Shown here: piece by piece, positions 12,001-15,000 of the stretch | How positions within the stretch are numbered: the first letter of the stretch is position 1 | Layout of the letters: every line of letters begins with the position of its first letter | Assembly (NCBI RefSeq): GCF_011045215.1 | Contig: NZ_CP049201.1 | Length of the DNA stretch: 64,000 bases | Strand: one strand, 5' to 3' | Origin: Escherichia coli | GTDB taxonomy: Bacteria > Pseudomonadota > Gammaproteobacteria > Enterobacterales > Enterobacteriaceae | Made by a program: the position numbers

Positions 12001-15000
12001 TTCCAGCGCTACTCAGAGCGGCGTAGTCCAAAGCATCAACCAGCGTTGGAAAATCGGCATAGCGCATAGGTAGGGAATGCGTAAAGATTTTATTAGACAT
12101 ATACACCACGAAAAAATTGGATATCCAAAATAAAATGACAATAATGCGGTGGATTATATAGGCATAAAAGATAAATGAGATAGTATTTTCATCAGTGTGA
12201 AAATGAACATTGATTTAAATAATGAGTTTGAGTTTTTTTGTTTTTATTGTGAATGATATTTAATTTATGAATATATTAAGAAGAAGCCTTGTCCGGTCGC
12301 CTTAAATCGACAAAAGGCATTGTGGCGCTTCTGTGTAGTCGCTGACCTTATCGTAATCATTAATAAATACTATTTATTCGTCGTTTGTATTCATTGGGTT
12401 GATTATTAAGGTGCCGTTCGTTGCTGTTGCAACCTGTTTGTCACCGTTAATTATTTGTTACCCACAGAACTATGGAATGCGATCTGCTGATGATTAAAAT
12501 TGAAAAAGTAATTAATAAAAATGACCTTAAGGCATTTATCGCTTTTCCGTCATCACTTTATCCCGACGATCCAAACTGGATACCCCCTTTATTCATTGAA
12601 CGCAACGAGCATTTGTCTGCGAAAAATCCGGGGACGGACCATATCATCTGGCAGGCGTGGGTGGCAAAAAAAGCGGGGCAGATAGTTGGGCGTATTACCG
12701 CGCAAATAGATACCTTGCACCGCGAGCGTTACGGCAAAGATACCGGTCATTTCGGCATGATTGACGCCATTGATGATCCGCAGGTTTTTGCCGCGTTGTT
12801 TGGCGCAGCGGAAGCGTGGTTGAAGTCACAAGGTGCAAGTAAGATCAGCGGTCCTTTCAGCCTGAATATCAATCAGGAAAGCGGATTACTGATTGAAGGT
12901 TTCGATACACCACCCTGTGCGATGATGCCGCACGGTAAACCGTGGTATGCCGCGCATATTGAACAATTGGGTTATCACAAAGGCATTGATTTACTGGCGT
13001 GGTGGATGCAGCGAACCGATCTCACTTTCTCTCCGGCGCTAAAAAAACTGATGGATCAGGTGCGCAAAAAGGTGACCATTCGCTGCATCAATCGCCAGCG
13101 GTTTGCCGAAGAGATGCAGATCCTGCGTGAGATTTTCAACTCTGGCTGGCAGCACAACTGGGGATTTGTGCCGTTTACCGAACATGAATTCGCGACCATG
13201 GGCGACCAACTTAAATATCTGGTGCCGGACGATATGATCTACATCGCTGAGATTGATTCTGCACCCTGCGCGTTTATTGTCGGCTTGCCGAACATCAACG
13301 AGGCGATTGCCGATCTGAACGGATCGCTCTTTCCCTTCGGCTGGGCAAAATTGCTGTGGCGTTTGAAAGTCAGCGGTGTGCGAACTGCGCGAGTGCCGCT
13401 GATGGGCGTGCGGGACGAGTATCAGTTCAGCCGCATCGGCCCGGTGATTGCGCTGTTATTGATTGAAGCCTTACGCGATCCGTTTGCCCGCCGGAAGATC
13501 GATGCGCTGGAGATGTCATGGATCCTCGAAACCAATACAGGCATGAATAACATGCTGGAACGCATTGGGGCGGAGCCGTACAAGCGTTACCGATTGTATG
13601 AAAAGCAGATTTAATACCAGCTAACTCAGGTTCATCTCCAGCGGCACCGCCGAGCGAATCAAATGGTGGCCTTCCAGCTCGATATCGTGGAGATTCTTTT
13701 TCACGGTCCGCACATGATCGCGTGCTGCGCGCTGGGCGACGTGCGGCAGCCGCTGCAACACCGCGTTGTAGATCCGCGCATGCTGGCGATCGATCTGCTT
13801 TTTTTGCTGTGGTCGATGGTAGAGATTATTTACGCTGGCAAACACTGAATTAAACATCAGGTCGGTCAATGATTGCAGCGTAAACACCAGCACCTGATTG
13901 TGAGAAGCCTGACAAATGGCGAGATGGAAAGCGTGATCCAACTGCGCATGTTCGATCAGCGAAATCTCTTTGTTGTTCTCACTGGCGGCGAGCATTTTTT
14001 CATAACAGCGGGTTATCACAACAAAATCAGCCTGCGTTCCCAGCGTTGCCGCCAGCCTTGCCGATTCGCCCTCCAGCAATGCGCGAACGTCGAGCAGATC
14101 GTACAGCGTTCGCGGCTGCGTACTGAACAGATGGATCAGCGGGCTGGTGTCCTGCACCCGATTAAGCCGTGCGACACGAGAATCGCGACCCTGCGCCGTT
14201 TCAATAATCCCGCGCCCGCGCAGCACGGTCAGCCCTTCACGCAGTGCGGAGCGTGAGAACCCGAGCTTTTCACACAGTCGACGTTCCGAGGGAAGCGGCT
14301 GACCGACCTTCAGTACGCCGTCGATAATTAACCGTTCGATACTCTCTGCAACCACTTCGCAAATAGGGCGACGTTCATCTTTCATTCCCGGACCTCGTGC
14401 ACAGGTAGGACCAATTTTTCTGTTCTTGACTCGCAAAACACGCACATCACGTAAGTGATTATGTTACATCAATTTAACATTGAGTTAACCAAGACAAGGT
14501 CACAGAGCTGGAAAAAAAAATGGTCTGACCGGTAGCTAAAGAGATAGACGAAAACGAAAAGCCCGCTTAATAACTGTTCACAGAAGCAGCGCGCAAAAAT
14601 CAGCTGCCACACAACATAACAAAGCGAAGCCTACTCATGAGCATCTTGTACGAAGAGCGTCTTGATGGCGCTTTACCCGATGTCGACCGCACATCGGTAC
14701 TGATGGCACTGCGTGAGCATGTCCCTGGACTTGAGATCCTGCATACCGATGAGGAGATCATTCCTTACGAGTGTGACGGGTTGAGCGCGTATCGCACGCG
14801 TCCATTACTGGTTGTTCTGCCTAAGCAGATGGAACAGGTGACAGCGATTCTGGCTGTCTGCCACCGCCTGCGTGTACCGGTGGTGACCCGTGGTGCAGGC
14901 ACCGGGCTTTCTGGTGGCGCGCTGCCGCTGGAAAAAGGTGTGTTGTTGGTGATGGCGCGCTTTAAAGAGATCCTCGACATTAACCCCGTTGGTCGCCGCG

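What the first reader, a model, noticed from the sequence alone, without database searches (positions are those of the whole stretch)
12110..12471. AT-rich divergent control region between the acyl-AMP ligase operon and yghO
About 360 bp of AT-rich sequence separates the divergently transcribed lipid-synthesis operon and yghO. It is a likely site of nucleoid-protein silencing and of a shared regulator, which would explain why the pathway is cryptic under laboratory conditions.
Basis: inference. Interest (0 to 1): 0.3.

Follow-up and report, generated by a model that had tools for sequence, protein, structure and literature searches.

The report
Promoter region of E. coli's sphingolipid genes
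This AT-rich gap is the uncharacterised two-way promoter region inside a known but apparently silent E. coli gene cluster for making ceramide-type lipids, and yghO is one of the pathway's enzymes rather than an unrelated neighbour.

Summary
Window 12110-12471 is a real divergent intergenic region with 31.8% GC against 50.4% for the window. It is present in 4160 of 5426 complete E. coli genomes.

The "acyl-AMP ligase operon" is the published E. coli B sphingolipid operon aasR-epi-acpR-spt. yghO is the pathway's putative N-acyltransferase, and here it models as a tandem GNAT enzyme, not a regulator. The aasR/yghO divergent pair is conserved in about 40 species.

- **Left side:** the 100 bp next to aasR (12101-12200) is as conserved among Escherichia species as first and second codon positions. 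It holds a perfect TATAAT with a poor -35.
- **Right side:** the remaining 270 bp evolves at or above the synonymous rate.
- **Structured or coding elements:** I found no RNA family, no significant fold and no conserved ORF.

H-NS silencing fits the base composition and published BL21 lipid data, which show no native product. It remains untested, and the H-NS high-affinity motif is not enriched. A shared regulator is not supported.

Insertion sequences have repeatedly cut this region, including the K-12 deletion.

Verdict: an ordinary kind of element, an uncharacterised AT-rich bidirectional promoter, in a moderately interesting place.

The parts
12101..12471 (.). AT-rich divergent intergenic region between aasR and yghO.
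   Evidence: GC is 0.32. It is present in 4160 of 5426 complete E. coli genomes.
10379..12100 (-). aasR, annotated as fatty acyl-AMP ligase. It is the specialised acyl-ACP synthetase and the first gene of the aasR-epi-acpR-spt operon. Alternative starts are the GTG at 12109 and the ATG at 12067.
   Evidence: Pfam AMP-binding. NCBIfam NF006624 at 876 bits. The BL21 orthologue ECD_02851 was characterised in PMC9386255. The ATG at 12100 is conserved.
9468..10382 (-). epi/cerR-type NAD-dependent reductase. It overlaps aasR by 4 nt.
   Evidence: Pfam Epimerase. Corresponds to ECD_02852.
9188..9436 (-). acpR, the specialised acyl carrier protein.
   Evidence: Pfam PP-binding. The protein (WP_000248097.1) is identical to that of BL21 ECD_02853.
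8016..9188 (-). spt, serine palmitoyltransferase.
   Evidence: NCBIfam equivalog NF047599 at 597 bits against a cut-off of 500. The protein (WP_000524970.1) is identical to BL21 spt.
12472..13614 (+). yghO (aca), the putative sphingoid N-acyltransferase or ceramide synthase. The family-conserved start is Met7 at 12490.
   Evidence: RefSeq annotation. Homologues are 374 aa and are named N-acetyltransferase. The model has a tandem GNAT fold. It is equated with CC_1154 in PMC9386255.
12101..12200 (-). Constrained block, extending more loosely to 12225. Proposed to hold the aasR core promoter, its 5' UTR and any operator.
   Evidence: 6 of 100 columns vary among 5 Escherichia species. Third codon positions vary at 36% (p = 6e-11) and first and second positions at 4.6%.
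12153..12158 (-). Perfect -10 hexamer TATAAT for aasR. The -35 (ATCTCA, 12176-12181) is poor. The predicted transcription start is near 12146, giving a 5' UTR of about 46 nt with a GGTG Shine-Dalgarno at 12104-12107.
   Evidence: 7.7 bits. It is invariant in 8 Escherichia sequences, and TATAAC sits at the matching place in Pseudocitrobacter. This is a prediction only.
12117..12145 (+). Plus-strand promoter-like site, TTGGAT-17-AATAAT, interleaved with the aasR promoter. It includes the palindrome TTGGATATCCAA (12117-12128, specific to this window).
   Evidence: Both hexamers are invariant. Function is unknown.
12247..12277 (+). Candidate distal yghO promoter: TTGTGA or GTGAAT at -35, then a 17-19 bp spacer, then TATATT. 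The predicted transcription start is near 12284.
   Evidence: Best plus-strand PWM score, 10.9 bits. 22% of columns vary, which is not significantly below the synonymous rate.
12281..12345 (.). GC-richer island (GC 0.51), hypervariable in sequence.
   Evidence: 64% of columns vary, more than third codon positions (p = 2e-5). The hairpin fold is not better than shuffles (z = -0.5). It is single-copy in genomes.
12362..12378 (.). Perfect 8-1-8 palindrome AATAAATACTATTTATT.
   Evidence: 58 of 1000 composition-matched shuffles contain one as long, so it is marginal.
12385..12412 (+). Candidate proximal yghO promoter, TTGTAT-16-TAAGGT. The predicted transcription start is near 12419.
   Evidence: 8.0 bits. 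This is a prediction only.
12446..12460 (+). ArcA-box-like sequence GTTAATTATTTGTTA. It matches 13 of 15 positions of a consensus I recalled from memory.
   Evidence: 3 of 300 dinucleotide shuffles reach this score, but 14 motifs were tried, so the evidence is weak. It is partly conserved among Escherichia.
12433..12632 (.). Zone holding four independent insertion-sequence deletion junctions: IS1 at 12433 (FORC_082), IS1 at 12478 (MSB1_1D), IS5 at 12512 (K-12 type, 353 genomes) and IS1 at 12632 (F8).

Best explanation
The region is the internal bidirectional promoter region of the E. coli sphingolipid (dihydroceramide) cluster.

- **Leftward promoter (inferred).** It drives the four-gene operon aasR-epi-acpR-spt. 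I place this promoter in the strongly conserved 100-125 bp next to aasR. It has a consensus -10 (TATAAT, 12153-12158) and a poor -35, then a leader of about 46 nt and a GGTG Shine-Dalgarno. That architecture gives low basal activity and usually needs an activator or relief of repression.
- **Rightward promoter (inferred).** It drives yghO, the pathway's GNAT-type N-acyltransferase, from one or more weak promoters in the fast-evolving right-hand 270 bp.
- **Silencing (inferred).** About 190 bp at or above 75% AT makes binding by H-NS or StpA likely. Combined with weak promoters and poor ribosome-binding sites, this keeps the pathway essentially off in standard culture.

**Shown:** gene identities and orientation, AT-richness, the conservation asymmetry, and the absence of a structured RNA or ORF.

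**Inferred:** promoter positions, H-NS occupancy, and the existence of a specific factor acting on the conserved block.
For: - **Identity and orientation of the flanking genes:**, and PMC9386255.
- **Conserved divergent pair:** aasR and yghO are divergently paired in about 40 species of Enterobacterales plus 2 Pseudomonas. In every one, the intergenic region has lower GC than the flanking genes.
- **Constraint on the aasR side:** 12101-12200 varies in 6% of columns, against 36% at third codon positions (p = 6e-11). The TATAAT is invariant.
- **AT-richness:**
- **Silent native cluster:** BL21(DE3) has a 99.7% identical intergenic region. It shows no 3-oxo-sphinganine with empty vectors, or with SPT alone.
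- **YghO is an enzyme, not a regulator:**
- **No competing element:** no Rfam hit, no significant fold and no conserved ORF.
Against: - No transcription start site, ChIP or reporter data exist for this region in anything I could search.
- Promoter-like sites are no more frequent than in composition-matched shuffles: 9 observed against 9.0 +/- 3.5 expected. The specific promoter calls are therefore weak.
- The H-NS 10-mer motif is not enriched, and the genes on both sides have ordinary GC content.
- In BL21, spots migrating like sphinganine and ceramide appear once 3-oxo-sphinganine is supplied. The authors suggest this reflects chromosomal epi and yghO. If so, the operon is not fully silent.
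Confidence: 0.6

Rival explanations
1. The region is mainly a xenogeneic-silencing target: H-NS filaments cover it and shut both promoters. One shared regulator bound in the middle relieves both sides together.
For: - It is 68% AT over 371 bp and 78% AT over 171 bp.
- The predicted promoters lie back to back, about 140 bp apart.
- The native pathway is silent in BL21.
- In ETEC H10407, H-NS occupancy tracks low GC genome-wide (PMC4287617).
Against: - Only the aasR side is constrained. The middle and the yghO side evolve at or above the synonymous rate, which is not what a shared operator predicts.
- The cluster is not AT-rich and is conserved across many genera, rather than looking recently acquired.
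- The H-NS high-affinity motif is not enriched.
- No regulator is encoded in the cluster.
- No CRP peak is listed here in H10407.
Confidence: 0.25
2. The region is an activator-limited promoter in which H-NS plays no important part. A specific transcription factor encoded elsewhere recognises the conserved block 12101-12225 and switches on the aasR operon under a condition not met in the laboratory. yghO is expressed separately at a low constitutive level.
For: - The block is conserved at the level of first and second codon positions, which composition-driven H-NS binding would not require.
- It has a consensus -10 with a poor -35.
- The BL21 data hint that yghO and epi activity exists while 3-oxo-sphinganine synthesis does not.
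- An ArcA-like box lies before yghO (weak).
Against: - No known factor's consensus matches the block better than shuffles do.
- epi lies inside the same operon as aasR, so separate expression of epi is hard to explain.
- The block also contains the 5' UTR and Shine-Dalgarno, whose constraint could be translational.
Confidence: 0.3
3. The long AT-rich spacer encodes a cis-regulatory RNA, such as a riboswitch-like leader or thermosensor, or a small RNA or small protein.
For: - The intergenic regions are long (270-1095 bp) in all species.
- Other genera have conserved non-coding sequence upstream of yghO and aasR.
- A CCAC tract in the predicted aasR leader (12148-12151) could pair with the Shine-Dalgarno region.
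Against: - No Rfam hit in E. coli or in 7 other genera.
- Fold z-scores are +0.33, -0.47 and -0.53.
- RNAalifold finds no consensus pair in 12 genera.
- There is no conserved ORF. The one 17-codon ORF in E. coli is broken by a 1-nt indel in the other haplotypes.
Confidence: 0.04

Closest known systems
Rhodobacteria-type sphingolipid cluster of E. coli BL21(DE3) and Caulobacter crescentus (aasR, epi/cerR, acpR, spt, aca/bcerS; PMC9386255, PMC11087976)
   Same: It is the same locus. The BL21 proteins Spt, AcpR and YghO are identical to those of the window's strain, and the intergenic region is 99.7% identical. AasR, AcpR and Spt from BL21 were characterised biochemically.
   Different: The published work covers the enzymes only. 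Nothing is reported on promoters, regulation or native expression in E. coli. The paper states that the five genes cluster together only in Caulobacter and E. coli BL21 among the strains it compared. I find the same clustering in about 40 species of Enterobacterales and Pseudomonas.
AT-rich intergenic promoter regions repressed by H-NS or StpA in E. coli, for example proU, bgl, and the sslE/T2SS-beta operon further along this window (from my own knowledge)
   Same: High AT content, many TpA steps and A-tracts, many overlapping promoter-like sequences, and low expression in laboratory culture.
   Different: - Occupancy and derepression have not been tested here.
- The AT-rich stretch is short (about 190-370 bp), and the flanking genes have genome-average GC.
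- The high-affinity motif is absent.
- Part of the region is conserved base for base, which H-NS binding alone does not explain.
Divergent promoter regions internal to biosynthetic clusters, with back-to-back promoters and a shared intergenic region
   Same: Two transcription units of one pathway face away from a common spacer, and the arrangement is conserved across genera.
   Different: No divergently encoded regulator is present: yghO is an enzyme. The conservation is one-sided, so coordinated control from a single site is not indicated.

Membership tests
Divergent (bidirectional) promoter region | The spacer is flanked by two genes on opposite strands, both with their 5' ends facing it. 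| tested here: met
   ORFs and RefSeq annotation. The same arrangement holds in about 40 species.
Divergent (bidirectional) promoter region | Recognisable promoter elements on both strands, beyond chance. | tested here: inconclusive
   There are 9 sites of at least 8 bits, against 1.4 per tile elsewhere in the window, but composition-matched shuffles give 9.0 +/- 3.5. The strict scan finds 2 sites against 2.3 expected. An invariant TATAAT lies at 12153-12158.
Divergent (bidirectional) promoter region | Mapped transcription start sites in both directions. | not testable with these tools
   I found no transcription-start data for carrier strains.
H-NS-silenced AT-rich region | AT content far above the genome average over 100 bp or more. 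| tested here: met
   68% AT over 371 bp, and at least 75% AT across 12121-12308. This is within the top 2% of tiles in the window.
H-NS-silenced AT-rich region | A high-affinity nucleation motif (tCGATAAATT). | tested here: not met
   The best match is 8 of 10, at 12262-12271. The window-wide count is 74 against 64.5 +/- 8.3 expected. 222 of 300 shuffles match as well.
H-NS-silenced AT-rich region | H-NS occupancy in vivo, and derepression in hns mutants. | not testable with these tools
   H-NS ChIP-seq exists for ETEC H10407, which carries the locus, but no peak table is held. No paper links H-NS to this cluster.
H-NS-silenced AT-rich region | The associated genes are themselves AT-rich and recently acquired. 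| tested here: not met
   aasR is 53% GC and yghO 50%. The cluster is present in 77% of E. coli genomes and across Enterobacterales.
Rhodobacteria-type sphingolipid (dihydroceramide) cluster | A serine palmitoyltransferase with a specialised ACP gene immediately upstream. | tested here: met
   NF047599 equivalog at 597 bits against a cut-off of 500. A PP-binding ACP ends where spt begins, at 9188.
Rhodobacteria-type sphingolipid (dihydroceramide) cluster | A specialised acyl-ACP synthetase (AasR) and an epimerase-family reductase. | tested here: met
   AMP-binding and FAAL models, and the Epimerase family. The activity of the BL21 orthologue is reported in PMC9386255.
Rhodobacteria-type sphingolipid (dihydroceramide) cluster | An N-acyltransferase homologous to Caulobacter CC_1154 (bCerS). 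| tested here: inconclusive
   The tandem GNAT fold was shown here (E = 3e-14, TM 0.55-0.69). Homology to CC_1154 is taken from PMC9386255 and was not recomputed. The enzymatic activity of YghO has not been demonstrated.
cis-regulatory RNA or small RNA | A match to a known family, or a fold more stable than shuffles, or covariation. | tested here: not met
   no hit; z from +0.33 to -0.53; 0 consensus pairs.

The most novel reading that the evidence does not exclude
The 100-bp block next to aasR (12101-12200), conserved as tightly as protein-coding positions, would be the operator and promoter for a dedicated, signal-responsive regulator encoded elsewhere. That regulator would decide when E. 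coli and its relatives make ceramides. Finding it would reveal the natural condition under which E. coli produces sphingolipids.
Probability: 0.25. Interest if true: 0.6.

Novelty: new member of a known kind. Interest (0 to 1): 0.3.

Why it matters
E. coli is the textbook organism said to lack sphingolipids. Yet about three quarters of complete E. coli genomes carry an intact five-gene ceramide pathway, and three of its enzymes (AasR, AcpR, Spt) have been shown to work in vitro. I found no report of when, or whether, the pathway is expressed.

This spacer is where that decision is made. The one-sided, coding-level conservation points experiments at a specific 100 bp. K-12, the usual reference strain, has lost the whole region to an IS5-associated deletion, which explains why the question went unnoticed.

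As a sequence feature, though, it is an ordinary AT-rich divergent promoter region. The H-NS idea is a generic expectation rather than a discovery.

Tried and rejected
- **Known RNA families.** None found in the E. coli spacer or in 7 other genera.
- **Structured leaders.** Folds of the predicted aasR leader, the yghO leader and the GC island are no better than shuffles. RNAalifold on 12 genera gave 0 pairs.
- **Hidden gene.** There is no conserved ORF in any species' spacer. A 17-codon ORF at 12204-12257 is broken by an indel in other haplotypes.
- **Shared sequence outside Escherichia.** The spacer sequence is not conserved beyond the genus. By eye, E. coli 12130-12165 looked similar to the yghO-proximal motif of other genera, but an nhmmer profile did not support this, so I rejected it.
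- **Transcription-factor consensus scan.** I tested 14 motifs recalled from memory. Fur, CRP, FNR, PhoB, PhoP, CpxR, IHF, Lrp, OmpR, RcsB, LexA and H-NS scored no better than shuffles. FadR was borderline (9 of 300 shuffles). ArcA gave 3 of 300, which does not survive multiple testing.
- **CRP as shared regulator.** No ChIP-seq peak is listed between 3.44 and 3.56 Mb in H10407.
- **YghO as the regulator.** K-12 names it a "putative DNA-binding transcriptional regulator". I rejected this: the model has a tandem GNAT fold, and there are no Pfam, NCBIfam or PDB sequence hits.
- **Palindrome 12362-12378.** 5.8% of shuffles contain one as long.
- **GC island as a repeat element.** It is single-copy in genomes.
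- **Literature.** I found nothing on regulation, H-NS, transcription start sites or native sphingolipid production for this locus. The key Nature Chemical Biology paper (PMC8891067) is not held.
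Full report
**Observation.** The window is E. 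coli chromosome and is 100% identical to strain ET350 over the finding. Coordinates 12110-12471 are the gap between the longest ORFs, 10379-12109 (-) and 12472-13614 (+). RefSeq annotates these as a fatty acyl-AMP ligase and yghO, divergently oriented.

GC is 0.318 against 0.504 for the window, within the lowest 1.7% of 362-bp windows. The left 171 bp is 0.22 GC, and a 65-bp island at 12281-12345 is 0.51 GC. About 190 bp stays at or above 75% AT, and TpA steps are twice the window mean.

The region is not exceptional locally. The yghT/yghS and glcA/sslE spacers are equally AT-rich.

**Boundaries.** The ATG at 12100 is ATG in most of about 40 orthologous loci, has a GGTG Shine-Dalgarno at 12104-12107, and is the annotated start in SE15. 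ET350's RefSeq start is 12067. YghO homologues outside Escherichia are 374 aa long and start at the equivalent of Met7 (12490), behind a conserved TAAGG Shine-Dalgarno that Escherichia has lost. The spacer is therefore 362-404 bp depending on the start codons chosen.

**What the flanking genes are.**
- The PLP enzyme at 8016-9188 passes the NCBIfam equivalog for serine palmitoyltransferase, at 597 bits against a cut-off of 500.
- The other operon genes are an ACP, an epimerase-family reductase and an AMP-binding ligase.
- Padilla-Gomez et al. 2022 (PMC9386255) describe exactly this locus in BL21(DE3): aasR (ECD_02851), epi (ECD_02852), acpR (ECD_02853), spt (ECD_02854) and aca, which is yghO (ECD_02850). 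The last is the homologue of Caulobacter CC_1154, the ceramide-synthase step.
- BL21's Spt, AcpR and YghO proteins are identical to those of the window's strain, and its spacer is 99.7% identical.

yghO is therefore a pathway gene, not a bystander. Across one genome per species, aasR and yghO are divergently paired in about 40 species of Enterobacterales and 2 Pseudomonas. Their spacers are 270-1095 bp and always have lower GC than the flanking genes.

A model of YghO (pLDDT 76, pTM 0.77) matches tandem GNAT acyltransferases at E = 3e-14. K-12's label "DNA-binding transcriptional regulator" is unsupported, and the cluster encodes no regulator.

**Anatomy of the spacer.** I found no Rfam family, no conserved ORF and no fold better than shuffles. 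The sequence is not conserved outside Escherichia.

Within Escherichia (five species-level genomes plus three E. coli haplotypes) the conservation is sharply one-sided:

| Segment | Variable columns | Comparison |
|---|---|---|
| 12101-12200 | 6% | same as first and second codon positions (4.6%) |
| Third codon positions | 36% | 12101-12200 is far lower, p = 6e-11 |
| GC island 12284-12349 | 64% | above third positions, p = 2e-5 |
| Other segments (remaining 155 bp) | 22-86% | at or above third-position variability; none significantly below it |

The constrained block holds three features:
- an invariant perfect TATAAT on the aasR strand (12153-12158), with a poor -35;
- a predicted leader of about 46 nt;
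- an interleaved plus-strand promoter-like site, TTGGAT-17-AATAAT.

Candidate yghO promoters lie at 12247-12277 and 12385-12412. Promoter-like sites are 6-fold denser here than elsewhere in the window, but no denser than in composition-matched shuffles. Individual promoter calls therefore remain predictions.

**Testing the interpretation.**

*H-NS.* The composition fits, and H-NS occupancy tracks low GC genome-wide in ETEC H10407, which carries this locus. Against that:
- the high-affinity motif is not enriched;
- the flanking genes have average GC;
- no peak table or hns-mutant data for this locus could be found.

*Shared regulator.* This is not supported, for four reasons:
- the constraint is one-sided;
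- no regulator is encoded in the cluster;
- no CRP ChIP-seq peak is listed here in H10407;
- of 14 consensus motifs, only an ArcA-like box at 12446-12460 stands out (3 of 300 shuffles), which is weak after multiple testing.

*Cryptic in the laboratory.* This is partly supported. BL21(DE3) with empty vectors, or over-expressing SPT alone, makes no 3-oxo-sphinganine. Once that intermediate is supplied, however, sphinganine- and ceramide-like spots appear, which the authors tentatively attribute to chromosomal epi and yghO.

**Best explanation.** This is the internal two-way promoter region of the sphingolipid cluster. The conserved block next to aasR is the promoter, leader and probable operator of aasR-epi-acpR-spt. 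Its consensus -10 and poor -35 suggest that it needs an activator or relief of repression. The fast-evolving right part carries weak yghO promoter(s). AT-richness probably recruits H-NS or StpA. I put overall confidence at 0.6. Promoter positions and H-NS binding are inferred, not shown.

**Other observations.** Insertion sequences have cut this zone at least four times. The K-12 IS5 junction lies at 12512 (353 genomes) and is associated with loss of the spacer and aasR through part of yghQ. IS1-associated deletions end at 12433, 12478 and 12632.

A second E. coli spacer haplotype, found in 425 genomes, differs by 13.7% over 12201-12471. The adjacent yghO differs by only 0.7%.

**Verdict.** The feature is an uncharacterised instance of a common kind of element. 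Its value lies in its location at the switch of a pathway that E. coli is not supposed to have.

Noticed in passing
window 8016-13614: The locus is the E. coli sphingolipid (dihydroceramide) cluster described for BL21(DE3). RefSeq names are inconsistent between strains: spt is called "aminotransferase class I/II-fold PLP-dependent enzyme" in ET350 but "serine palmitoyltransferase" in BL21, although the protein is identical.
   Followed up: yes
window 12433-12632; L002, L003, L053, L054: There are four independent insertion-sequence deletion junctions in or next to the spacer. The K-12 IS5 junction is at 12512. IS1 adjacent deletions starting next to gss end at 12433, 12478 and 12632. The cluster is being lost recurrently.
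   Followed up: partly
L003 7044-8216 (K-12 yghO b2981): The K-12 yghO ORF runs 70 nt into IS5LO, so its N-terminus is chimeric. Its product name, "DNA-binding transcriptional regulator", conflicts with the tandem GNAT fold.
   Followed up: yes
window 12201-12471 vs L048 (Ecol_656): A second spacer haplotype, in 425 genomes at 80-90% identity, differs by 13.7% over this stretch. The next 600 bp of yghO differ by only 0.7% and aasR by 2.9%. This is either a recombinant patch or a fast-evolving segment.
   Followed up: partly
window 12472-12490: Escherichia has replaced the TAAGGCTGTTT-ATG ribosome-binding region that every other genus keeps before yghO. Neither candidate E. coli start (12472 or 12490) has a good Shine-Dalgarno.
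   Followed up: partly
L008, L010, L012, L028, L032, L036, L037, L038, L041, L044: about 130 nt upstream of yghO: Other Enterobacterales share conserved non-coding sequence here. It consists of TTTTCTTATC followed by a short variable hairpin, then CAATAGATCGCAG.CTGGATAATATAGGC.GGTTTATTGTGTA. There is no Rfam hit, RNAalifold finds no consensus structure, and there is no counterpart in E. coli. It remains unexplained.
   Followed up: partly
about 45 nt upstream of aasR in L008, L010, L013, L035, L036, L042 and others: The sequence GGTGATTTTnAATCTATGGCTnnTTTGTAT-ATG-TCT-GAA-ACA-AGC is conserved at the nucleotide level from Serratia to Pseudomonas. It contains an in-frame upstream ATG. It could be a five-codon N-terminal extension or a translation-initiation element.
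   Followed up: no
window 3059-7981: Next to the ceramide genes lie a full-length yghQ (a MOP-type flippase, truncated in K-12), a hypothetical gene, a YtfJ-family gene, and paralogues of lptF and lptG. These may form an export route for the lipid product.
   Followed up: no
window 1337-1509 and 23061-23545: Two other spacers are just as AT-rich: yghT/yghS (GC 0.31, divergent) and glcA/sslE (GC 0.30).
   Followed up: no
L046 (NZ_SDSC01000040.1, Macrococcus sp., 430 bp): A 430-bp contig filed under Macrococcus is 99% identical to E. coli yghO. This is most likely assembly contamination.
   Followed up: no
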